Shown here: piece after piece, positions 7,957 to 41,830 of the stretch
How the letters are laid out: each line of letters opens with the position of its first letter
Numbering within the stretch: the stretch's first letter is position 1
NCBI GenBank assembly: GCA_964016885.1
Contig: OZ024743.1
Location: 14,756,001 to 14,820,000 of the forward strand
DNA: 64,000 bases
Direction: 5' to 3'
Source of the DNA: Eledone cirrhosa
Taxonomy: Eukaryota
The notes under the pieces: generated by a model
Databases searched by the model: none
The model's input: only the letters and a program-made list of their open reading frames with translations
Told to the model about the DNA's origin: nothing
Made by a program: the position numbers and the translations under genes

Positions 7957-7985
7957 AATAATAATAATAATAATAATAATAATAA

Positions 7986-10900
7986 GGGAAGAAGACGCAC
8001 GAGGTGATAGAAGGTCATGAAATCGCTTCCGTAAGTTTTGAATTTTTAACATATTTAAATCATTTGTGAAATAACAACTCTTAGTACAAATGCTACGTAA
8101 AGCACCCGGCTTGAGCCCCCAAAAAATTCGGACCCAAAATATATTGTTATAAGGCTCAAATACTCAAATATTCAACTTTGTATTGTACATTGTTTATTCA
8201 AAAAAGAAAATAGCTATAAATGGAAGAAAAAACCCCTCCCCCTCCTCTGTCTACACTATATAGAACAGCCAAACAACACCAATCTCACCAACACCAGAAA
8301 CTTGATACACCACCTACCCCATCACCTCTCTGTGTACACTAAACACAACAGCCAGATAACGGCAATTTCACCACCACCACAACCAATCTTAACATAATAA
8401 GGATAATAATAAATACTATTATTATTGTCCCAAGTCTTAACAAACTGTTTAATCCCAACATTAAGGGAATTTAGGTCAACACACATATACGCGACTAACC
8501 CCATAGATTCACCGAACGGACATCAGTCCTTCATTGCTACCACCGCTACAACAACACCATCACTGCTGCCATCATTACTACCACTATCCCACCATCACCG
8601 CCGCCACCACTCCTTCATTGCTACCACCACTACAACACCATCACTACAGTAATACGATCACATCACCACCACCACTGCCTCGGTATCGACATCACCACCA
8701 CCACTGTCTCAGTATCGCTACCGCCACTACTGTCTCCCATTGCTTCTGCTAGTTGCTGCCACCACATTATAGAATTCCTACTAAAAAAGAGGAAGGTATC
8801 AAAATATATAGATAGACTCAAAAGAAAAAAGAAAGAACAAACATCAAAACCAAAACAGCACAGCAACAACAGCAAAAAACGAGAAAAACAAACAGAGAAA
8901 AACAAAAACAAAAAACAAAAAAAACGTAAAGAAAATAAGAATGAAGAGAGAAACAAGCGGACGGACAGAGAAGAGAAGGGAAACACAAAGACATTCGAAC
9001 ACTACATTACAATGAAACTTATGCTTATTCATTTTTGTTTTTTTTTATGCCTGTGTGTTTGTTTGTTTATTTGTGTTCGTCTACAGCGTGGTGATAATGC
9101 CACACAAGTGCCAAATGGAACGGCGCAACCACCGAAAACGGTGAATCCACAGATGGCTATGTAACCATACATTCGCCAATCCTCGATAAGAGTGTTTAAA
9201 TATCGAACCTAAACAGTTCGAATAACGGTGAAATGGAGACTAAAACGTCATGTGATAGACTCTCACCCAACAGGTGCTCCCTGGCTCAGCAGCAGGAACC
9301 TGACTGTCAACCAAATACTGCTGGTGTTGGGGGAAGAAGAAGAAGGAAAGGGGCCAGAACCAACTGGACGAAAGAATTGAATAGAACTGTTATGCAATGT
9401 TACCTGAAAAGTAACCCCAAGGAGAGGGGCTATAGGAGACGGATGCATAACATCTGGAACGAGATTGGTCTATTTAAATTAGATGAACAAAAATTGGACG
9501 GGCAGGCTCGGGTAATAAGAACTAATGGGTGGATAAGCGAGCTGGAACTGGAGGAACTGAGCAGAGAGAATAGCTTGGAGATGGAGGGTGTAGTATGCCA
9601 GACAAACGAGCCAGTGGGAAATGAAGGTGAAGAGGTCGAGAGAACGGAGGAACCACCCGAAGCAGACAATGATCTGAATACTGAGATAAATAATACCTGG
9701 AACAGAGATACGGCCACTGAGGAGATGAATGCTGACGGGCTAGGACAAGATTCGGTTGACATCCTAAATTTAGTGGTAGATGAATTGAGCAATGATAGTG
9801 GGAGACCTATGAAGCTAAGATTTGTAGACAGGAAAAAGTTAAAAGAAACAACAGCTAAGGTAAACAAAGTCATCCCATACCTTGAGGCGAGGAGCCTTCA
9901 CCAGTGCAACAATATCCTCAAAGCAACAGCACATACGGTGAGGAAACTACTTGGCATAAAAGCGAGAGGAAACAACAGACAAGAAAGAGCAGAGCCTTGG
10001 TGGAAGAAACGACTGAGTGGTCAAATCAAGGAAATGAGAAATGACATAGGAAAGCTTGAGTCACTACAGAATGGGACACTAAAAAACATAGGCACTAAAA
10101 ATAGACTGGAAATAAAGTACAAAACTAGGAGGAAAAAGCTAAATATGATCATAGAGGAACTGAAGCAACGCATTGTAGCAAAGAGTGCAAAAATCAGGCG
10201 ATACGAGAACAGAGTCAGTCAGTATAAACAGAACCGCATGTTCGACAACAACCAGAAGATGCTGTTTGGACAGCTTGAGGGGAAAGAAAGAGGCAACGAC
10301 TTGATCCCTGAGGCGGAACAAACTAAAACATTCTGGAGAGGAATATGGGAGCAGGATGTTAGACATAATGACCAGGCAGGGTGGATTGAGACAGTACAGA
10401 GGGAGATCGGTGAGCAGGCACACCAACAAACTGATTTGAGTATCACATTTGAAACTCTTAAGGGGCAGGCAAAAAAACTAACCAACTGGAAATCACCAGG
10501 CCCAGATGGTGTGCAGGGGTATTGGATTAAAAATTTAACATCCCTCCACGCGAAACAGACGGCCATGTTCAATGACTGCTTGGTGTCGGGTGAGGTGCCA
10601 GAGTGGTTGACAAAAGTACCACAGTTCTGATAATGAAAGACCGAATCAAGGGTAATGATGTTACCAACTATAGACCTATCACATGTCTGTCCGTAATGTG
10701 GAAACTGTTGACGAGCATTGTGTCTGAGGAAATCTACCATTACCTCCACACAAACAACTTGTTACCGGACGAACAGAAAGGATGCCGAAAGAAGTCACGT
10801 GGTGCAAAGGACCAGTTACTTATTGATAAGATGGTAATGGGGAATTGCAGAAGGAGACACACTGATCTTGCCATGGGATGGATAGACTACAGAAAGGCAT

Positions 10901-11922
10901 TTGACATGGTGCCTCACTCTTGGATCACCAAAAGCCTGGAGATCTTCAAGGTGGCAGATAACATCAGACAGTTGCTGGGCAGGAGTATGGGGTCCTGGGA
11001 GACAGAGTTGACATCAACTGGAGAATCCTTGGGAAGCGTGAAGATCAAGAGAGGTATCTTCCAGGGAGATAGCCTGTCCCCTCTGTTGTTTGTCCTTGCC
11101 CTGATGCCCTTGACCATTATGCTGCGAAAAGTGAGAGCAGGATACAAGTTGGGAAAGGGAGATTACCATCAATCACCTCCTCTTCATGGACGATTTAAGC
11201 TGTTCGGGAAGAGTGAGAAGAAGTTGGATGTGCTTGTTGACACTGTCCGTATTTTCAGCAGTGATATATGTATGCAGCTTAGTATTAGTAAGTGTGGAGT
11301 CATTATGATAAGGAGGGGTAGGTTGAGCAGAAGTAACGGAATCCAGATACCAACAGGTGAGATGATAAAGGAAATTGACTCTGAGGAAGCATACAAGTAT
11401 TTGGGCGTTCTGGAGGCTGATGGCATAAAGAACACAAAAATGAAGGAATTGTTAAGAACTGAATACATTCGGAGAATAAGGAGCGTATTGAAGTCACATC
11501 TGAACAGCAGAAATGCCATAAGCGCAGTAAATTCCAGAGCTGTGTCTATTATTAGGTACAGTGCGGGAATTCTGAGATGGAATGTTGCTGAACAAAAAGA
11601 AATGGATAGGAAGACTAGGAAGCTATTGACTATCTACAACATGTTCCACAAGAGGAGTGATGTCGATAGACTCTACCTAAGGAGATTTCCTCTTGACATG
11701 GTGCCTCACTCTTGAATCACCAAAAGCCTGGAGATCTTCAAGGTGTCAGATAACATCAGACAGTTGCTGGGCAGTTGCTTTTTGGAACGCTTCAAAAGGC
11801 ATGCTTGCAGGGAACAGCAAGAACCCTCCGATACGTCCTGAATATCTGAGGCTGCAGGTAGTGGCTTGATATTCATTCCAACGGACTTTCCAGTTAACCA
11901 GCATCAATGACTGAGATTCAAG

Positions 11923-11977: not shown

Positions 11978-11980
<3 letters not shown>

Positions 11981-14678
11981 AAATGAGAAATGACATAGGA
12001 AAGCTTGAGTCACTACTGAATGGGACACTAAAAAACATAGGCACTAAAAATAGACTGGAAATAAAATACAAAACTAGGAGTAAAAAGCTAAATATTATCA
12101 TAGAGGAATTGAAGCAACGCATTGTAGCAAAGAGTGCCAAAATCAGGCGATACGAGAACAGAGTCAGTCAGTATAAACAGAACCGCATGTTCGACAACAA
12201 CCAGAAGATGCTGTTTGGACAGCTTGAGGGGAAAGAAAGAGGCACCGACTTGATCCCTGGGGCGGAACAAGCTAAAACATTCTGGAGAGGAATATGGGAG
12301 CAGGATGTTAGACACAATGCCCAGGCAGGGTGGATTGAGACAGTACAGAGGGAGATCGGTGAGCAGGCACAGCAACAGACTGATTTGAGTATCACAGTTG
12401 AAACTCTTAAGGGGCAAGCCAAAAAACTAACCAACGGGAAATCACCAGGCCCAGATGGTGTGCAGGGGTATTGGATTAAACATTTAACATCCCTCCACCC
12501 GAAGCTGACGGCCATGTTCAATGACTGCTTGGTGTCGGGTGAGGTGCCAGAGTGGTTGACAAAAGGTACCACAGTTCTGATAATGAAAGACCGAATCAAG
12601 GGTAATGATGTTACCAACTATAGACCTATCACATGTCTGCCCGTAATGTGGAAACTGTTGACGAGCATTGTGTCTGAGGAAATCTACCATCACCTCCACA
12701 CAAACAACTTGTTGCCGGACGAACAGAAAGGATGCCGAAAGAAGTCACGTGGTACAAAGGACCAGTTGCTTATTGATAAGATGGTAATGGGGAATTGCAG
12801 GAGGAGACACACTGATCTTGCCATGGGATGGATAGACTACAGAAAGGCATTTGACATGGTGCCTCATTCCTGGATCACCAAAAGCCTGGAGATCTTCAGG
12901 GTGGCAGATAACATCAGACAGTTGCTGGGCAGGAGTATGGGGTCCTGGGAGACAGAGTTGACATCAACTGGAGTATCCTTGGGAAGCGTGAAGATCAAGA
13001 GAGGTATCTTCCAGGGAGATAGCCTGTCCCCTCTGTTGTTTGTCCTTGCCCTGATGCCCTTGACCATTATGCTGCGAAAAGTGAGAGCAGGATACAAGTT
13101 GGGAAGGGGAGAGCTTACCATCAATCACCTCCTCTTCATGGACGATCTTAAGCTCTTCGGGAAAAGTGAGAAGGAGTTGGATGTGCTTGTTGACACTGTC
13201 CGTATTTTCAGCAGTGATATATGTATGCAGTTTGGTATTGGTAAATGTGGAGTCATTGTGATGAAGAGGGGTAGGTTGAGCAGAAGTAACGGGATCCAGA
13301 TACCAACAGGTGAGATGATAAAGGAAATTGACTCTGAGGAAGGATACAAGTATTTGGGCGTTCTGGAGGCTGATGGCATAAAGAACAAAAAAATGAAGGA
13401 ATTGTTAAGAACTGAATACATTCGGAGAGTAAGGAGCGTATTGAAGTCACATCTGAACAGCAGAAATGCCATAAGCGCAGTAAATTCCCGAGCTGTGTCT
13501 ATTATTAGGTACAGTGCGGGAATTCTGAGATGGAATGTTGCTGAACAAAAAGAAATGGATAGGAAGACTAGGAAGCTATTGACTATCTACAACATGTTCC
13601 ACAAGAGGAGTGATGTCGATAGACTCTACCTAAGGAGATCTGAGGGTGGAAGAGGTCTCATCAGCATAGAAGACTGTGTTCAGATGGAGAAAAACAACCT
13701 ATACAAATACGTGACCTATAGTAAGGAGCCAATGCTCAGAGCTGTACTGAAGGAGGGGACAGTAGGCCAGGGGATACCCAAGGAGGAAATAACATCAAGG
13801 AGGAAGAGCAGCCTTAAGGGAAAATCCCTTCATAGTACCTTCTTTGAGAAAACTGAATTTAGAGATCCACAGACATGGAACTGGTTGAGAAGAGGAGACC
13901 TCAAAAAGGCTACAGAAGGAATGCTAATGGCTGCGCAGGAGCAGGCCCTCAAAACGAAGTGGTTGAAGCACCATATCTACAAGGAGGAGGCTAGCCCACT
14001 GTGCAGGATCTGTGGAGAGAGAGAGGAGACTGTGGCTCACATTGTGTCCGAGTGTAAACACCTAGCCCAGACCCACTATAAGGGCTGGAAACACGATGTG
14101 ATGGGCAGGGTGATCCACTGGCACCTGTGCAAAGTAAACAATCTACCACATTCTGAGAAATGGTATGAGCATAGGCCAGAGGCGGTGATGGAGAACAGTC
14201 AGGTGAAGGTGCTGTGGGATTTTAGGATACAGACGGACAAAAAACTGGAACACAATTGACCTGACCTGGTGGTTGTGGACAAAGAAAAAAGATCGTGCCT
14301 GATTGTGGATGTGGCCTGCCCGTTCGACACGAGAGTGCAAGAGAAGGAGAGGGAGAAAATTAACCGATACCAGGACCTAAAGTGGGAGGTGAAAAGGATT
14401 TGGAACTGCCATGAAGTCAAAGTGATCCCGATTGTCATAGGCGCACTGGGGACTATCTCCAAAGGTTTCCAGGGATGGTTAAAGAAAATCGGCCCCTTCA
14501 CGCTTTTTGGAACGCTTCAAAAGGCATGCTTGCTTGGAACGGCAAGAACCCTCCGATACGTCCTGAATATCTGAGGCTGCAGGTAGTGGCTTGATATTCA
14601 ATCCAACGGACTTTCCAGTTAACCAACATCAATGACTGAGATTCAAGGAATAACAATAACGATAATAATAATAATAAT
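11978..14678 (+). mobile_element. R4/Dong copy B (5'-truncated)
   Basis: Follows the copy A tail; ends in 3'UTR plus AAT tail. Confidence 0.92.
11983..14574 (+). pseudogene. Copy B RT-CCHC-RLE ORF with one premature stop
   Basis: LFMDD RT core, [18 protein letters not shown]; TGA at 14257-14259 replaces the R of RPDL. Confidence 0.9.
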
Positions 14679-16834
14679 GACTGCTTGGTGTCGGGTGAGG
14701 TGCCAGAGTGGTTGACAAAAGGTACCACAGTTCTGATAATGAAAGACCGAATCAAGGGTAATGATGTTACCAACTATAGACCTATCACATGTCTGCCCGT
14801 AATGTGGAAACTGTTGACGAGCATTGTGTCTGAGGAAATCTACCATCACCTCCACACAAACAACTTGTTACCGGACGAACAGAAAGGATGCCGAAAGAAG
14901 TCACGTGGTACAAAGGACCAGTTGCTTATTGATAAGATGGTAATGGGGAATTGCAGGAGGAGACACACTGATCTTGCCATGGGATGGATAGACTACAGAA
15001 AGGCATTTGACATGGTGCCTCATTCCTGGATCACCAAAAGCCTGGAGGTCTTCAGGGTGGCAGATAACATCAGACAGTTGCTGGGCAGGAGTATGGGGTC
15101 CTGGGAGACAGAGTTGACATCAACTGGAGTATCCTTGGGAAGCGTGAAGATCAAGAGAGGTATCTTCCAGGGAGATAGCCTGTCCCCTCTGTTGTTTGTC
15201 CTTGCCCTGATGCCCTTGACCATCATGCTGCGAAAAGTGAGAGCAGGATACAAGTTGGGAAGGGGAGAGCTTACCATCAATCACCTCCTCTTCATGGACG
15301 ATCTTAAGCTCTTCGGGAAAAGTGAGAAGGAGTTGGATGTGCTTGTTGACACTGTCCGTATTTTCAGCAGTGATATATGTATGCAGTTTGGTATTGGTAA
15401 ATGTGGAGTCATTGTGATGAAGAGGGGTAGGTTGAGCAGAAGTAACGGGATCCAGATACCAACAGGTGAGATGATAAAGGAAATTGACTCTGAGGAAGGA
15501 TACAAGTATTTGGGCGTTCTGGAGGCTGATGGCATAAAGAACAAAAAAATGAAGGAATTGTTAAGAACTGAATACATTCGGAGAGTAAGGAGCGTATTGA
15601 AGTCACATCTGAACAGCAGAAATGCCATAAGCGCAGTAAATTCCCGAGCTGTGTCTATTATTAGGTACAGTGCGGGAATTCTGAGATGGAATGTTGCTGA
15701 ACAAAAAGAAATGGATAGGAAGACTAGGAAGCTATTGACTATCTACAACATGTTCCACAAGAGGAGTGATGTCGATAGACTCTACCTAAGGAGATCTGAG
15801 GGTGGAAGAGGTCTCATCAGCATAGAGGACTGTGTTCAGATGGAGAAAAACAACCTATACAAATACGTGACCTATAGTAAGGAGCCAATGCTCAGAGCTG
15901 TACTGAAGGAGGGGACAGTAGGCCAGGGGATACCCAAGGAGGAAATAACATCAAGGAGGAAGAGCAGCCTTAAGGGAAAATCCCTTCATAGTACCTTCTT
16001 TGAGAAAACTGAATTTAGAGATCCACAGACATGGAACTGGTTGAGAAGAGGAGACCTCAAAAAGGCTACAGAAGGAATGCTAATGGCTGCGCAGGAGCAG
16101 GCCCTCAAAACGAAGTGGTTGAAGCACCATATCTACAAGGAGGAGGCTAGCCCACTGTGCAGGATCTGTGGAGAGAGAGAGGAGACTGTGGCTCACATTG
16201 TGTCCGAGTGTAAACACCTAGCCCAGACCCACTATAAGGGCTGGAGACACGATGTGATGGGCAGGGTGATCCACTGGCACCTGTGCAAAGTAAACAATCT
16301 ACCACATTCTGAGAAATGGTATGAGCATAGGCCAGAGGCGGTGATGGAGAACAGTCAGGTGAAGGTGCTGTGGGATTTTAGGATACAGACGGACAAAAAA
16401 CTGGAACACAATAGACCTGACCTGGTGGTTGTGGACAAAGAAAAAAGATCGTGCCTGATTGTGGATGTGGCCTGCCCGTTCGACACGAGAGTGCAAGAGA
16501 AGGAGAGGGAGAAAATTAACCGATACCAGGACCTAAAGTGGGAGGTGAAAAGGATTTGGAACTGCCATGAAGTCAAAGTGATCCCGATTGTCATAGGCGC
16601 ACTGGGGACTATCTCCAAAGGTTTCCAGGGATGGTTAAAGAAAATCGGCCCCTTCACGCTTTTTGGAACGCTTCAAAAGGCATGCTTGCTTGGAACGGCA
16701 AGAACCCTCCGATACGTCCTGAATATCTGAGGCTGCAGGTAGTGGCTTGATATTCAATCCAACGGACTTTCCAGTTAACCAACATCAATGACTGAGATTC
16801 AAGGAATAACAATAACGATAATAATAATAATAAT
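14679..16834 (+). mobile_element. R4/Dong copy C (2156-bp tandem unit)
   Basis: Same 5' junction (AAT tail into AATGACTGC) as copy D. Confidence 0.92.
14685..16730 (+). CDS. Open RT + zinc knuckle + restriction-like endonuclease frame (5'-truncated, 681 aa)
   Basis: [54 protein letters not shown]. Confidence 0.85.
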
Positions 16835-18997
16835 GACTGCTTGGTGTCGGGTGAGGTGCCAGAGTGGTTGACAAAAGGTACCACAGTTCTGATAATGAAA
16901 GACCGAATCAAGGGTAATGATGTTACCAACTATAGACCTATCACATGTCTGCCCGTAATGTGGAAACTGTTGACGAGCATTGTGTCTGAGGAAATCTACC
17001 ATCACCTCCACACAAACAACTTGTTACCGGACGAACAGAAAGGATGCCGAAAGAAGTCACGTGGTACAAAGGACCAGTTGCTTATTGATAAGATGGTAAT
17101 GGGGAATTGCAGGAGGAGACACACTGATCTTGCCATGGGATGGATAGACTACAGAAAGGCATTTGACATGGTGCCTCATTCCTGGATCACCAAAAGCCTG
17201 GAGGTCTTCAGGGTGGCAGATAACATCAGACAGTTGCTGGGCAGGAGTATGGGGTCCTGGGAGACAGAGTTGACATCAACTGGAGTATCCTTGGGAAGCG
17301 TGAAGATCAAGAGAGGTATCTTCCAGGGAGATAGCCTGTCCCCTCTGTTGTTTGTCCTTGCCCTGATGCCCTTGACCATTATGCTGCGAAAAGTGAGAGC
17401 AGGATACAAGTTGGGAAGGGGAGAGCTTACCATCAATCACCTCCTCTTCATGGACGATCTTAAGCTCTTCGGGAAAAGTGAGAAGGAGTTGGATGTGCTT
17501 GTTGACACTGTCCGTATTTTCAGCAGTGATATATGTATGCAGTTTGGTATTGGTAAATGTGGAGTCATTGTGATGAAGAGGGGTAGGTTGAGCAGAAGTA
17601 ACGGGATCCAGATACCAACAGGTGAGATGATAAAGGAAATTGACTCTGAGGAAGGATACAAGTATTTGGGCGTTCTGGAGGCTGATGGCATAAAGAACAA
17701 AAAAATGAAGGAATTGTTAAGAACTGAATACATTCGGAGAGTAAGGAGCGTATTGAAGTCACATCTGAACAGCAGAAATGCCATAAGCGCAGTAAATTCC
17801 CGAGCTGTGTCTATTATTAGGTACAGTGCGGGAATTCTGAGATGGAATGTTGCTGAACAAAAAGAAATGGATAGGAAGACTAGGAAGCTATTGACTATCT
17901 ACAACATGTTCCACAAGAGGAGTGATGTCGATAGACTCTACCTAAGGAGATCTGAGGGTGGAAGAGGTCTTATCAGCATAGAGGACTGTGTTCAGATGGA
18001 GAAAAACAACCTATACAAATACGTGACCTATAGTAAGGAGCCAATGCTCAGAACTGTACTGAAGGAGGGGACAGTAGGCCAGGGGATGTCCAAGGAGGAA
18101 ATAACATCGAGGAGGAAGAGCAGCCTTAAGGGAAAATCCCTTCATAGTACCTTCTTTGAGAAAACTGAATTTAGAGATCCACAGACATGGAACTGGTTGA
18201 GAAGAGGAGACCTCAAAAAGGCTACAGAAGGAATGCTAATGGCTGCGCAGGAGCAGGCCCTCAAAACGAAGTGGTTGAAGCACCATATCTACAAGGAGGA
18301 GGCTAGCCCACTGTGCAGGATCTGTGGAGAGAGAGAGGAGACTGTGGCTCACATTGTGTCCGAGTGTAAACACCTAGCCCAGACCCACTATAAAGGCTGG
18401 AGACACGATGTGATGGGCAGGGTGATCCACTGGCACCTGTGCAAAGTAAACAATCTACCACATTCTGAGAAATGGTATGAGCATAGGCCAGAGGCGGTGA
18501 TGGAGAACAGTCAGGTGAAGGTGCTGTGGGATTTTAGGATACAGACGGACAAAAACCTGGAACACAATAGACCTGACCTGGTGGTTATGGACAAAGAAAA
18601 AAGATCGTGCCTGATTGTGGATGTGGCCTGCCCGTTCGACACGAGAGTGCAAGAGAAGGAGAGGGAGAAAATTAACCGATACCAGGACCTAAAGTGGGAG
18701 GTGAAAAGGATTTGGAACTGCCATGAAGTCAAAGTGATCCCGATTGTCATAGGCGCACTGGGGACTATCTCCAAAGGTTTCCAGGGATGGTTAAAGAAAA
18801 TCGGCCCCTTCACGCTTTTTGGAACGCTTCAAAAGGCATGCTTGCTTGGAACAGCAATAACCCTCCGATACGTCCTGAATATCTGAGGCTGCAGGTAGTG
18901 GCTTGATATTCAATCCAACGGACTTCTCCAGTTAACCAACATCAATGACTGAGATTCAAGGAATAACAATAACAATAATAATAATAATAATAATAAT
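16835..18997 (+). mobile_element. R4/Dong copy D (5'-truncated)
   Basis: Near-identical to copy C with about a dozen differences; AAT tail. Confidence 0.92.
16841..18886 (+). CDS. Open RT + CCHC + RLE frame (5'-truncated, 681 aa)
   Basis: Same motifs as copy C. Confidence 0.85.
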
Positions 18998-21763: not shown

Positions 21764-23591
21764 TTACCTTACTTTTCGTAGAGGAAGGATGGGGTGTCCA
21801 TTCTTTTCACTGCTTGTGGCCTCCTCCGGAAAGATGTCCTTATAAATCCTCCTGGAGAGTGTTTGTCGGAAGTCTCCGATGTCTTTGGGGAATTCTTGTT
21901 TTAGTGTCATGTACGTTTTCTGTGTGATGCGAGTGATTTGTATGTGTGGAGGTGGTGTGAACTTTTGGGTTGTTGTGTAGTCTTTTTCTGTGATGCTGGT
22001 GTTGTGTTGCATGTAGTGTAATAATTGGTTGTTGTTCAAATTTAATGCTGTGTAGTGTGTATCGTTTTGGTTGTTTTGTTTTGTTTGCATCTGTTGTGGG
22101 TTTGTTTCTGTTACGCTTTTTGGTGACATTTGTGGTGTTGGTGATGGTGGTGTTGGGGTTAATTATGGTGATGGTGTTGGTGTTTGTGGTGATGGGGTTG
22201 GTGATACTGGTGTGGATGGTGGCATATCTGTCTTAACTTTCTTGTTTGCTAATTTATTTGTTTCCCTCTGTATTTTGTTTTTGGAGTAAAAAATCCTCCA
22301 CAGGCGTTGGTTTTGGTTGTGGCGTGGTGGATGGTGTAGGCGCTGGTGCTAGTTATGGGGCGTTGGGTGGTGGTGTTGTTGGTTTTGCTACTGTTGCTGG
22401 GGTTGTTGCTGTTACAGTTGCTTCTGTTGTTGCTGCTACAGTTGTTGCTGCTATATCTGCTGCTGGTGGTGATGATGATTGAGTCACTGGGGTGGGTAAG
22501 AGAGGTGGCCTCAACATTTAGTCTGAGGGCAAAAAGCCCTTAGGTGGGTTCCTTCTCCACAAATGACACACGTAGGTATTCTGCCCTCGACGATTACGGT
22601 GAGGTGGCTGCCGTCAGTGAGGTCTATTACCTCTGGGATCTCCTCAATGCTTTTATGGTCCGCTTGGATCAGGAGCTCCATCCCAGATCCGGGCCAGTTC
22701 TCCTGCTTTTCTTTTGCTATTTCTATTATCTTGGTGTTGGTCTCGATGCCGGCGAGGACGGCAGCCATTATCCAGGGAATTTAGATGACCGGTGGAACGT
22801 GGGTCACCCTGATATTCTCAAGTCTCTGGCCACAATAGCTTGGGATGAAAGTGAAGTCGTCACTTCTTAATGGGGCCATTGAGTGTTCTCAGAATACTCC
22901 ACGGTTCCATACTTCTGCCCACGTCTGATATGGGTTTTCTTTACCCACACATGTCCCAAAGCTTTTTGGGACTCGGATGCCGGTTCAACACGGCGCGATT
23001 TTATGTCAATTGTCCGATAAGACACGGTGCATAGGCGACGTTGCTCCATTTTATTAGGTGTGTGTGTGTGGGGGGGGGGGGGGGGGCTGACCATGTACCC
23101 ATCTTTCTTTACCATTCCTTTGGCTTCTTCTAATACCTCCTGAGTTACCTGGATCGCTTCGCACGTTTTCACTACTCTGGCAAAACTCAGGGTAGTTTTC
23201 TTAATTTCATTGTTGCTGTTGTTGTTATAGTTATTTTTACTATTGTTAATTTTAGTTTCAGTTGTGGTGGTGGTGGCGTCAGTGGTGTTCGGTGTGGAAG
23301 AGTTCACTTTGGTTGAATTCATTTCGATATCACGAGTTAATTTTTTTATTCTTCTGTTTCTGTTGTCGCTGTGGTGGTGGTGGTGGTTGTCGCGGTGGTG
23401 GTGGTGGTGGTGGTTGCAGATTTAACTCCTGAAGTCATTGGTAATGGCGGGAAATGAACGTCTGCCTGAGACAAATTTAAAATATTGCTATTGCTTACAA
23501 TTCCAGTGTTGGCAAACGTAGCAATGTTTACAATGGTGGTTTCGGTGTGAGGTGTTGGATTGTGAGGAAGGAGTGAATCTGAGTCATCCAT
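21764..23591 (-). pseudogene. Tx1 copy 1 ORF1 (T/N-rich N-terminus, CCHC knuckle)
   Basis: RRGQKYGTVE and CVICGEGTHLRAFC in split ORFs. Confidence 0.75.
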
Positions 23592-23804
23592 TATTTTCAA
23601 AGAAAAAAAATTTTGTTTGATAATTATAAAAAGTTTAAATTTTGGGCTCAAGGCTCCAATATTTTTGAGTGTCCTTTTCAGAAATCAATGTATGTGCACT
23701 TATATACAGTTAATAAAAAATTTCCATAAATGGCAATTTTAAATAACTGAAAATAACAAGCCTTTGCGGAGCTCACGACGATACGATTTACTACGTAGGT
23801 CGCC

Positions 23805-23845
<41 letters not shown>

Positions 23846-24460
23846 GGAAGAAAACGCACATGGTGGATATATATCGTTATGGAATCGCTCCCATAAGTTT
23901 TTGATTTTTACTTATTTAAAACGACTGTGATAGAATAATTATTATTACAAATGAAGTATAAGATTACATTTTAACGCTCAGCAAGCCATAACGCATTACT
24001 TTACGGCATAGGGCCACAATATTTAATATTTAATTTTAGATCAGAAATGTTATAGTCGAAAAAGGGGAAAATGGCAAAATGGCTAAATAGCTAGATAGCT
24101 AAGTGGACAGACAGGCAAATAATTTCACCACCAACACCACCACCGCCACCATCACCACTACCACGCCAAAAACTCTAGTCAAGTTACCTCAACTTCTATT
24201 TCTACTTCAACTTCAACACCATTACTACAGTACTACGATAACATCACCACCACTACTGCCTCATTATCGCTACCGCCGCTATTCTCTCCCACTACCCCCT
24301 GCTAAGACATGCATCGTAGTGTCCCCACTAAAAGAGGAAGGCATCACAAGATATAAATAGACAGATTTGATGACCCAGTCAATAAATAAAAAAAAAACAA
24401 ATATCAAAATCAAAACAGCACAGCAACAACGAAAAACGTAAAGAAAAGAAAAATGAAAAT

Positions 24461-24520
24461 ACTTTCCAATTAACTAACATCAATGACTGAGACTCAAAGA
24501 ACAATAATAATAATAATAAT
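24461..24520 (+). mobile_element. ~60-bp Dong 3'-end fragment with AAT tail, inside the copy E leader
   Basis: ACTTTCCAATTAACTAACATCAATGACTGAGACTCAAAGAAC(AAT)n matches the Dong 3'UTR end. Confidence 0.8.
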
Positions 24521-25372
24521 GATATAAATAGACTGATTTGATGACCCGGTCAAAAAAAAAAAAATAAATAAATAAAAAAAAAAAATAAATAAAATAAAAA
24601 AATAAAAACATCACAGCAGCAACGGAAAACGTAAAGAAAAGAAAACAGAAAAGAAAAACAAACAGACAGACAGACAAGAAAAAAAACTAAGTCAGACATT
24701 CAAACATTACATTACAATGAAACTTATGCTTATTCTTTTTTTTTTTTACCTATTTGTTTGTTTGTTTATTTATGTTCTTCTACAGCGTGATAGTGCCACA
24801 CTAAAATCACCGGGGGTGATGAGATCACAGGTGGTTATATAACTATACATTCACGAATCCTCGATAAGAGTGTTTAAATGTCGAACCTAAACAGTTCGAA
24901 TAACGGTGAAGTGGAGACTGGAATATCATGTGACAGACTCTCACCCAGCAGGTGCTCCCTGTCTCAGAAGCAGGGACCTGGCTGTCAAACAAATACTGCT
25001 GGTGTCGGAGGAAGAAGAAGAAGGAAAGAGACCAGAAGCAACTGGACGAAAGAATTGAATAGAACTGTTATGCAATGTTATCTGAAGAGTAACCCCAAGG
25101 AGAAAGGCTATAGAAAACGGATGCATAACATCAGGAACGAGATTGGTCTATTTAAATTAGATGAACAAAAATTGGACGGGCAGGCTCGGGTAATAAGAAC
25201 TAATGGATGGATAAGCGAGCTGGAACTGGAGGAACTGAGCAGAGAGATTAGGTTGGAAGTGGAGAGTTGAGTATGCCAGCCAAACGAGCCAGTGGGAAAT
25301 GAAGGTGAAGAGGTTGAGAGGAAGGAGCAACCATCCGAAGCAGACAATGATCAGAATGCTGAAATAAATAAT

Positions 25373-38287: not shown

Positions 38288-40265
38288 TTACTTACCTTCC
38301 GGGCTCTTGTGAAGGTCGGGTTGTTCGACCTCCATAGTTGGTGGGATTTCTTTAGGGAACGCCTTTAAAAGTCTTGAAGTGGGTTTTACGTTCGGGGTTC
38401 CCACGTCCCGAGGAAAGCTGTCTCGTATTTCTTTGAATAAATCGATCGACATTCGCACCAGAACCAAATCTTCCGGCACGCGAAATGTGCTCGATTTAAA
38501 AATTTCCCCCTTTTTGTATGTTTTCACTTCGTGCTACAACAGCCACCAGTTTCTTGTTGGCCCTCCTGACGAGCACGACGTTTTGTATGTTTTGTTGGTG
38601 TGATTGTATTTGTTTGCACGGCTCGGGTGGTGATGGTTTTGGTGGTGTTGTTTCGGTTGTGTCTGTGTTTGTTGTGAGTGCGGTGTCTGTGGTTTCAAAA
38701 GTTTGTGTGTATATTTGTTCTTGTGTCTGTTTAGGTTGTTTGCGTTTGGGGGATTCTGGTGATGGTGATGGTGGTGTTGATGTTGGTGTTATTGGAGAGA
38801 TGTTTGCGTGGGTGTTGTCTGCGTTTTTTATTGTGGGTGATTTTGTGCATTATTCAGTGTTTTTTTTTTTTTGTGTTTCCTTTTTTGTATTTTGGGGGAT
38901 TTTGGTTTTCCCTCATCTTCACTACTGGTAGATGAGGGATCTTTGTCTGCAAGTGTGTCTATGTGTATGTTTATGGTTTTATTGGTGTGTGTATTTTTGG
39001 GGGGAGGGGGAATTTGACAGCTTTCCTCGTTTCCCCCCTGAGTGGTCAATGTTGGTAGTGGTCTTTCTATTGGTGTTGTTTTTGGTCGTTTTGCCGGTGC
39101 TGGTGTTGTTTGTGGTCCTCGCCCCGACGTCGTCAGCAGCGGAGCCTGTCGATTCTTGCCTCTTTCAGCAGTTGAGGGCAGAAGGCTCGCAAATGGGTTT
39201 TTTACCCTCAAACAAAACACTGCGGCCTTTTGCCTTCGGTCATAATGTGAATGACCGTCCCATTCTGAAGGCGGATGTAGTCCGGGATTGTCTTCACATT
39301 CTCGGGCCTGATCTGGAGAAGGATCTCCAGGTCAACTCCGGACCACTCCTCTCTGGCCATTCTGGTCACTTCTACAGGGACGGTCGCCGTCCCCTCCATA
39401 ATCACACATCCCAGAAGCCACCACATGTCAAGTCATGGTGGGATTCTGGGAATGCGGAGACGGGCCGTTCTTTTTTCCATGTGGGAGGGGTTCATTATGA
39501 CCTTCCTGGTTTTGCAAGGAGTCATAGCGTGTTTCATAGCGAGGGCTTCTGACTTGAACAACACCGAAATGGTGCCGTACTGTCTGCCCCTCTCTATGTA
39601 TTCAGTGTCTTCTCTGATGCACCTCAGCGCGACTTCGACATCTGCTTGTGGGATTAAAGCTGCCCTTTTGGTTTGTGCTGAGATGCATCTATAATGCACC
39701 GTTCTGCGCTCCACTGCCACAATAGCTTCTACCGGGACAGTTAAGTTGGCCCAGGTTTTCTCTTGCCTGACGAGCTTCCATGCCTGAGCCAACTTTTCAT
39801 CTTTGTTTGAGAGGTCCATGTTGAAGCATGGCCTCTATTCTGCTGCTGCCGCAGCGAAAGTATTCTTCTTGTTTTCGTTGGGGGTGTTGTTGTCGTTGTC
39901 GTTGTTCTTATTGGTGTTGTTGTTATCACTGTCGCTGTTATCATTGTTGTCTTTGTTGCCTCTGTTTTTCTCGGTGCAGTTGGTATTGTTGGTGTTGGTG
40001 TTGTCGCTATTTGTTTTCATGTTAGTGGTGTTGATGTTGTTGCATTTGTCATTTTTCTTTTGTCATCTGTATTTTCGTTGACGCTGTTACAGTTATTTTT
40101 TTCAAAATTAGAGTTCTCATTGTTATCTTTGGTGTCTTTGTTTACATTGTTTGTGGTGGTGGTTGTGTTATCAATGTGTGTTAATTTCGCTGTAGCGCTC
40201 CTCTCAACTTCTACGTCGTTGTCGCACGACAGCAGACATATCGCTGGAGGGCGTGGCACAGCCAT
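38288..40265 (-). pseudogene. Tx1 copy 3 ORF1
   Basis: MAVPRPPAICLLSCDN, IERGRQYGTISV, HLRAFCP remnant; frameshifted. Confidence 0.78.
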
Positions 40266-40480
40266 ATTTTTATTTATCCCGTAAATTTTTTAACATGTAA
40301 AAAAAGTTCAAATATTTGGGCCAAAAGGCCCAAATATTATACTTTCCCCTTTCCGGGGCAAAGTCTAAGGGCTTATATCACTTACACAACAAGAAATTTT
40401 TAACAACAAATAATTTTAACAGGCAAATAAAGCGACTTACTGGGAGCGAGCAAAATACGTCCGCTTAGACCAATAATAAT

Positions 40481-41754: not shown

Positions 41755-41830
41755 CATAGAGTGTTATGGAATCGCTCCCGTAAGTTTTTGATATTTTTAC
41801 ATATTTAAAACAATTGTGATTTACATTGAT
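41755..41830 (+). mobile_element. 5'-terminal fragment of a further Dong copy (G)
   Basis: GTTATGGAATCGCTCCCGTAAGTTTTTGATATTTTTACATATTTAAAAC matches 23876-23930 and 8015-8070. Confidence 0.7.

What the first reader, a model, noticed from the sequence alone, without database searches (positions are those of the whole stretch)
7986..9230. Dong leader looks like it contains a ~1-kb spliceosomal intron
Seen: ~45 nt after the 5' end lies CC|GTAAGT (8031; also 41780 in copy G; ATAAGT at 23893 in copy E). About 100 nt before the ORF is a long T-rich tract ending CTACAG| (9086; 24785 in copy E). Both ends are conserved between A and E, while the middle is low-complexity and much more diverged. Known: intron retention is documented in Penelope-like elements and splicing in L1; I know of no such report for R4/Dong. 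Inference: unspliced RNA would be the transposition template and spliced RNA the mRNA.
Basis: partly seen in the sequence, partly recalled or inferred. Interest (0 to 1): 0.7.

Follow-up and report, generated by a model that had tools for sequence, protein, structure and literature searches.

The report
Leaky splice donor in Dong leader

Summary
The motifs are real: CC|GTAAGT at 8030|8031 and a T-rich tract ending CAG| at 9086, kept across subfamilies whose spacer runs 672-1740 nt. The genome has 2,050 copies with the intact donor. Of 26 hits where exon 1 is not followed by GT, 7 copies (6 events) break exactly at the donor. Two join right after a proximal AG (window equivalent 8206), two at an AG inferred inside an inserted SINE, two near but not at an AG. 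None joins 9087; about 28 would be expected at the human L1 rate. So the donor likely works rarely, like L1 SpIREs; the 1,056-nt intron is unshown. The first ~650 nt are shared with a second, distant R4/Dong-like lineage that lacks this acceptor, and their head resembles heads of APE-type LINEs in this window: likely a captured promoter module. No RNA run was on record, so a Penelope-like retained intron is not excluded. This scan's unchecked notes report the same on other DNA of this genome.

The parts
7957..7985 (+). (AAT)n target repeat before the element
   Evidence: the same kind of flank precedes most of the 30 closest copies
7986..8030 (+). 5' head ('exon 1', 45 nt) of full-length copy A
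   Evidence: common start of dispersed copies
8031..8036 (+). 5' splice donor GTAAGT, likely functional at low frequency
   Evidence: 6 genomic events break exactly before it; 2,050 intact copies
7986..8632 (+). 5' module shared with a second R4/Dong-like lineage (B); likely promoter (inferred); head similar to APE-type LINE heads
8183..8206 (+). proximal acceptor-like site (T-rich stretch, A run, AG at 8205-8206); equivalent site used in spliced copies L182 and L183; would give a 176-nt intron here
8935..8995 (+). A/G-rich arm predicted to pair with the T-rich tract; pairing mostly not beyond shuffles
9036..9086 (+). T-rich tract and CAG: acceptor-like, never found joined to the donor
9087..9232 (+). 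3' part of the leader; frame opens at 9200 (ATA here), ATG at 9233
9200..11715 (+). broken single ORF of copy A (N-terminal region and part of RT)
23845..24785 (+). leader of copy E (older subfamily): donor decayed to ATAAGT at 23893, AG at 24784-24785, nested Dong 3'-end piece at 24461-24524
41756..41819 (+). copy G: 5' relic with donor at 41780, no acceptor
40212..40471 (-). head of an APE-type (L1/Tx1-like) LINE with TCGCTCCCA|GTAAGT, similar to the Dong head
23545..23804 (-). head of a second minus-strand LINE similar to the Dong head but without GT at the matching place

Best explanation
The leader is likely a captured, promoter-type 5' module whose donor at 8031 is likely used by the spliceosome only now and then, to whichever nearby AG is available, while the far AG at 9086 is joined to it in no genomic copy found. 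Shown: the motifs, their persistence across subfamilies, the sharing of 7986-8632 between two distant lineages, six donor-exact junction events and no distal junction. Inferred: that the module is an internal Pol II promoter taken from an L1/Tx1-type element; that the junction copies are reverse-transcribed spliced RNAs and dead ends, like L1 SpIREs; that one unspliced RNA serves as both message and template; that the donor is kept because it lies in a promoter motif or because U1 binding near the cap helps transcription. Weakly inferred: the T-rich tract is masked by pairing with the A/G-rich arm upstream.
For: (1): 26 hits with exon 1 not followed by GT = 18 point variants, 1 chance match, 7 junction copies (6 events), all cut at CCC|. 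L182 and L183 resume right after AAAAAAG with no microhomology; they have different flanks, are 88% alike in the leader and are 96% and 98% like different unspliced copies. L186 and L187, from different lineages, both resume at the same base of a SINE, where many SINE copies read TTTAG|GCAC. (2) Controls: with the left break free over about 25 places, 4 of 4 hits (3 events) still break at the donor; breaks two bases further in: 0 of 25 hits are junctions; P(4 or more of 6 right breaks after an AG) = 7e-5, or 1e-3 allowing one base of ambiguity. (3) 0 distal junctions; 95% upper bound about 0.2% of ~1,400 copies, against 131 of 6,609 for L1 (PMC5860796, section 7). (4) 20 of 90 sampled donor-bearing copies belong to lineage B (proteins 27-48% identical) and lack this acceptor; 24 of 30 sampled B copies carry part or all of the shared module and the other 6 start later, after (AAT)n. 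(5) Head similarity to APE-type LINE heads: 0, 0, 3 and 13 of 500 dinucleotide shuffles reach the scores. (6) In L1 the donor is kept for promoter function and rarely used (PMC5860796, sections 10 and 17).
Against: The 9086 site is the best acceptor-like site in the element (1 of 397) and positions -5..+2 are the same in all 6 subfamily groups while 9 of 31 upstream positions differ. Older B copies have their own TTTCTTTCTCAG|C site, 783-1009 nt from the donor in 5 of the 6 such copies where a donor match was found, and event L184 resumes 1-10 nt after it. Junction events are rarer in the lineage with the strong far acceptor (1 of ~1,412 vs 5 of ~456; p = 0.004, denominators extrapolated), which a dedicated far splice could explain. 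Two of six events (L181, L184) do not end at an AG, and the AG in the parents of L186 and L187 is inferred: SINE copies also read TTTTG|GCAC. Promoter activity was not tested. The hairpin beats shuffles (z at or below -2) in only 4 of 26 copies and shows no clean covariation.
Confidence: 0.65

Rival explanations
1. One reading: 8031-9086 is a real, regularly spliced intron. Spliced RNA is the message and is kept out of retrotransposition because it lacks a cis element in the 3' half of the intron, as Penelope-like elements retain their introns.
For: Working donor. Strong, lineage-invariant acceptor core and a spacer free to vary from 672 to 1740 nt. A separate acceptor-like site at similar distance in lineage B. 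Fewer junction copies in the A/E lineage, and its one event (L187) keeps the 3' half. Precedent: 5' UTR introns overlapping the promoter in Penelope and Chlamys-3 (PMC8557442, passages).
Against: 0 of ~1,400 copies spliced there, while other spliced forms were inserted, including L184, which lost nearly the whole B spacer. The lineage difference can also come from loss of the proximal AG (absent in 22 of 32 A2 copies; block absent in 8 of 8 E copies). The youngest subfamily trades pyrimidines for purines in the tract, and B's site went from CAG to AAG in the commoner copies. 5 upstream ATGs remain after splicing.
Confidence: 0.2
2. The meaningful intron is the short one (8031-8206), inherited with the L1/Tx1-type 5' UTR and regularly removed from mRNA; the far acceptor is unrelated.
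For: 3 of 6 events end at or 5 nt before this AG. One APE-type head in the window has the same donor word.
Against: The AG follows a run of A, not pyrimidines. It is missing in 22 of 32 copies of the youngest subfamily and the block is absent in E. Only 2 precise copies were found among more than 2,000. The second APE-type head family has GCAAAG at the matching place (15 of 19).
Confidence: 0.1
3. Nothing is spliced: the junction copies are template jumps of the reverse transcriptase or later deletions, and both motifs are look-alikes in AT-rich sequence.
For: 2 of 6 events do not end at AG. T-rich YAG sites arise in 324 of 1,000 shuffles. Antisense A-rich tails of other elements give such sites in this genome.
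Against: Left breaks all fall at the donor when free to vary. Two pairs of independent events hit the same base. No microhomology in L182 and L183.
Confidence: 0.05

Closest known systems
Human L1 intra-5'UTR splicing and SpIREs (Larson et al. 2018, PMC5860796; seen: abstract, sections 7 and 10, part 1 of 2 of the Discussion)
   Same: One conserved donor near the 5' end, several acceptors, rare precisely spliced full-length insertions, most copies unspliced.
   Different: Here an RLE-type single-ORF element; about 0.3% (6 events per 2,050 copies) against about 2%; acceptors include one supplied by an inserted SINE; no promoter or RT-PCR data.
Penelope and Chlamys-3_cRei 5' UTR introns (PMC8557442; seen: passages on 'intron')
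   Same: Intron-like segment in the 5' UTR overlapping a likely internal promoter and retained in genomic copies.
   Different: There splicing is shown in transcripts; here it is shown only by rare spliced insertions, and not for the long segment. Different class of element.
Bombyx mori Dong and nematode R4 (PMC3774820; seen: passages on 'Dong')
   Same: TAA-repeat target; single ORF with RT, zinc knuckle and PD..D endonuclease motif.
   Different: B. mori Dong self-cleaves at its 5' end with an HDV-like ribozyme; none was found here. A 1.2-kb leader with a splice donor stands in its place.
Octopus Dong-R4 families (PMC13282606, PMC9115989; seen: passages on 'Dong', 'intron', 'splic')
   Same: Abundant, recently active Dong-R4 in octopus genomes. 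That this host is an octopod is my inference and comes from no call.
   Different: In the main texts 'splic' occurs 0 times in both and 'intron' 0 times in PMC13282606; their sequence supplements could not be read.

Membership tests
R4/Dong clade non-LTR retrotransposon | Single ORF with RT, C-terminal CCHC knuckle and PD..D restriction-like endonuclease, no APE domain | tested here: met
   RVT_1 and no Exo_endo_phos in window ORFs and in full-length homologs P0001, P0002; CRIC..H..SEC and RPD..D motifs read (motif names recalled)
R4/Dong clade non-LTR retrotransposon | Insertion into TAA repeats (Dong) | tested here: met
   (AAT)n flanks in most copies
R4/Dong clade non-LTR retrotransposon | RT phylogeny groups with named R4/Dong/Rex6 | not tested
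   homolog search gave no informative names; no named references held
R4/Dong clade non-LTR retrotransposon | 5' HDV-like ribozyme as in B. mori Dong (a trait of members, not the clade definition) | tested here: not met
   no Rfam match of weight; 0 full hits in 7 leaders with a descriptor recalled from memory
Spliceosomal intron 8031-9086 | GT donor, T-rich tract, YAG | tested here: met
Spliceosomal intron 8031-9086 | Sites conserved beyond their neighbours between subfamilies | tested here: inconclusive
   cores invariant, but so are flanking blocks, and the donor sample was picked by a pattern holding GTAAG
Spliceosomal intron 8031-9086 | Precise junction in retrotransposed copies | tested here: not met
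   0
Spliceosomal intron 8031-9086 | Junction reads in RNA | not testable with these tools
   no RNA holder listed
SpIRE-like spliced insertion | Full-length insertion lacking exactly a GT..AG segment | tested here: met
   L182 and L183 directly; L186 and L187 with the AG inferred
SpIRE-like spliced insertion | Independent insertions with normal ends | tested here: met
   L182 and L183: different flanks, AAT runs at both ends, 94% body and 88% leader identity
SpIRE-like spliced insertion | Reduced promoter activity, evolutionary dead end | not testable with these tools
   needs reporter assays; each junction type was found in only 1-2 copies

The most novel reading that the evidence does not exclude
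An R4/Dong lineage has replaced its self-cleaving ribozyme with a captured Pol II leader and turned it into a regulated intron: spliced RNA is translated, and only intron-retaining RNA, marked by a hairpin that masks the acceptor and may be ADAR-edited, is copied into the genome. That would be a LINE that escapes cis preference by splicing.
Probability: 0.15. Interest if true: 0.75.

Novelty: new variant of a known kind. Interest (0 to 1): 0.36.

Why it matters
It extends the L1 pattern (a conserved but leaky 5' UTR donor leaving rare spliced insertions) to an RLE-type element. It also suggests that these abundant Dong families are transcribed as ordinary spliceosome-accessible RNAs from a leader exchanged between lineages, rather than cut out of host transcripts by a ribozyme. 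My 8 answered literature searches (open-access library only) listed no paper whose title or abstract opening reports splicing in R4/Dong; most listed papers were not opened. The stronger claim, a regulated 1-kb intron that separates message from template, would be far more interesting but is unsupported so far.

Tried and rejected
RNA evidence: no RNA holder listed. Four of the five listed runs (contigs, kind not on record) were laid. No GT..AG joint appears among the rows shown (26 rows hidden) or (all joints shown; one, not GT-AG), and X4 contigs bridge both sites unspliced. This is not counted as evidence either way. Published transcriptome supplements of PMC9115989: no motif hits in the files searched, but the FASTA file gave only 84 characters, four files were not searched and two are too large; the supplement of PMC13282606 was listed, not read. 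These could bear on splicing in related species. HDV-like ribozyme: not found. Hairpin as the full explanation of the T-tract: predicted pairing 0.50-0.84 but z at or below -2 in 4 of 26 copies; window A z -1.15, E z -3.34; an apparent compensatory pair came from one copy and did not hold. Splicing to create an in-frame start: the exon-1 ATG is not conserved and gives only a short out-of-frame uORF (read from the sequence). The 221-aa open frame at 8499-9164 has only sub-threshold low-complexity Pfam hits. A native B variant explaining L184 as a precise splice: none among 18 hits.

Full report
Observation. The window holds a cluster of RT elements in (AAT)n repeats. Copy A starts at 7986. GTAAGT lies at 8031-8036 and a T-rich tract ends in CAG at 9086; the E and G coordinates are as stated. 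A and E are 75-86% alike at the head and in 8786-9085 and 0-61% alike between. The donor's position is unusual (21 of 1,000 shuffles put GTRAGT in the first 100 nt); an equally pyrimidine-rich YAG is not (324 of 1,000). By T content, however, the 9086 site ranks first of 397 sense AGs in the element. Copy G is a 64-nt relic, and E's leader is lengthened by a nested 3'-end piece.

What the element is. It has one ORF with RT, a zinc knuckle and a PD..D motif, no APE domain, and (AAT)n flanks, so it is R4/Dong-like; no phylogeny with named references was made. B. mori Dong begins with an HDV-like ribozyme (PMC3774820, passages). None was found here by Rfam or by a recalled descriptor.

Family survey. 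The genome has 2,050 exact matches to exon-1 end plus GTAAG. I fetched the first 90 of the 100 listed, all on contig C1: 62 belong to the window's lineage, 20 to a second lineage B, and 8 were unclassified. In the 60 A/E copies with both ends and 150 nt of downstream sequence, the spacer is 672-1740 nt across six groups of increasing internal divergence (0.02-0.19). Donor positions -10..+9 and acceptor positions -5..+2 have the same majority base in all groups; the donor result is partly fixed by the search pattern. In unselected listings GT is intact in 91 of 100 and AG in 97 of 100 single copies, with no recurrent variant at either dinucleotide that marks a subfamily (counted by eye). Lineage B proteins are 27-48% identical to the window's, yet B uses the same 5' module up to window 8632: 24 of 30 B loci carry part or all of it, some 96% like subfamily A and others about 78%, and the other 6 are 5'-truncated. 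B lacks the 9086 tract and has a different acceptor-like site, CAG in older and AAG in commoner copies. The head also aligns with the heads of two minus-strand LINEs in this window, one contiguous with APE and RT frames; 0, 0, 3 and 13 of 500 dinucleotide shuffles match the four scores. I took that lead from earlier scan notes and tested only the head. One of these heads has the same donor word; the other family does not at that place.

Is it spliced? A LINE's spliced RNA can be fossilised as a genomic copy. Exact and gapped searches for the proposed junction found none. A general search for exon 1 followed by a non-GT dinucleotide gave 26 hits: 18 point variants, 1 unrelated match and 7 junction copies from 6 events. 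L182 and L183 resume right after AAAAAAG about 167 nt into the segment (window AG 8205-8206). They are independent full-length B insertions with no microhomology at the joint. L186 (B) and L187 (old A/E type) resume at the same base of a SINE lying in the leader; many SINE copies read TTTAG| there and others TTTTG|, and the unspliced parents were not found, so the AG is inferred. L181 (two neighbouring copies, counted as one event) resumes 5 nt before the proximal AG, after TTCAA. L184 resumes 1-10 nt past B's own acceptor-like site. With the left break left free, 4 of 4 hits still break at the donor; breaks two bases further in gave 0 junctions in 25 hits. The patterns are exact, so copies with a mutated exon 1, and some junctions with T at +2, are missed; the distal junction of A, E and F types would have matched. 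At the L1 rate of 131 in 6,609 (PMC5860796, section 7) about 28 distal junction copies would be expected among ~1,400; the 95% bound from 0 is about 0.2%. No RNA run was on record, and the contig runs laid are not used as evidence.

Mechanism. Shown: motif positions, persistence, module sharing, donor-exact junctions, absence of the distal junction. Inferred: the module is a captured internal promoter; transcripts are accessible to the spliceosome; the donor is used rarely and with the nearest usable AG; such copies are dead ends; unspliced RNA is both message and template. In L1 the matching donor is kept because it lies in a RUNX3 site and most transcripts are unspliced (PMC5860796, sections 10 and 17); a similar reason here is an analogy, not a result. 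The youngest subfamily lacks the proximal AG in 22 of 32 copies, which fits selection against splicing. Why the far site is unused is open. It is predicted to pair with an A/G-rich arm, in which A>G variant sites are about twice as dense as elsewhere (35 of 227 vs 117 of 1,532 A columns, p = 3e-4; outside the arm A>G and T>C are equally frequent). That would fit editing of a duplex, but alignment slippage in this low-complexity arm could also give it, and the fold beats shuffles in only 4 of 26 copies.

Against my reading. The far site looks like a very good acceptor and its core is invariant. B has a separate such site at a similar distance. Junction copies are scarcer in the lineage with the strong far site (1 of ~1,412 vs 5 of ~456, p = 0.004). 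Penelope-like elements splice a 5' UTR intron yet keep it in genomic copies (PMC8557442, passages). So a real long intron whose spliced RNA cannot be inserted remains possible (0.2).

Verdict. Observation confirmed; interpretation partly supported. This is a new variant of a known kind, L1-type leaky 5' UTR splicing in an R4/Dong-like element with an exchanged leader. Earlier unchecked notes of this scan reached the same reading on other copies; they are not independent support. Interest 0.36.

Noticed in passing
window 7986-8632; L063, L152, L157, L158 and other B loci: Two lineages with 27-48% identical proteins share the 5' module; B copies carry versions close to different A-side subfamilies (96% vs about 78%), which suggests repeated exchange.
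   Followed up: partly
window 40471 and 23804, minus strand: Heads of minus-strand LINEs (one with APE and RT frames) resemble the Dong head; one has TCGCTCCCA|GTAAGT about 31 nt from its start.
   Followed up: partly
window 8935-8995: The A-rich arm gains G from older to younger subfamilies at places predicted to face U; A>G variant sites about twofold enriched. Possible RNA editing fixed by reverse transcription.
   Followed up: partly
window 9200 and 9233: Start codon seems to have moved: older copies have ATG at the 9200 position and GTG at 9233; A and A2 have ATA and ATG. Both lineages have TAA directly before the first codon.
   Followed up: no
L181 (G000:C2:146869952 and 146875237): Junction resumes after TTCAA, where one A-to-G difference in the source RNA would make a T-rich CAG acceptor; the 5' part is duplicated around an inserted younger copy.
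   Followed up: no
L097, L114, L144, L186, L187 and B leaders: A tRNA-like SINE has inserted repeatedly into the leader; in one orientation it offers an acceptor-like site near its tail.
   Followed up: partly
window 11980-18997: Head-to-tail run of 5'-truncated copies; 12520-14674, 14676-16830 and 16832-18987 are 99.4-99.7% identical with the same truncation point, suggesting local tandem duplication.
   Followed up: no
L191, L194 (E type), donor +90: E-type leaders have a good T-rich CAG about 90 nt after the donor; no junction to it appeared among the 26 hits.
   Followed up: partly
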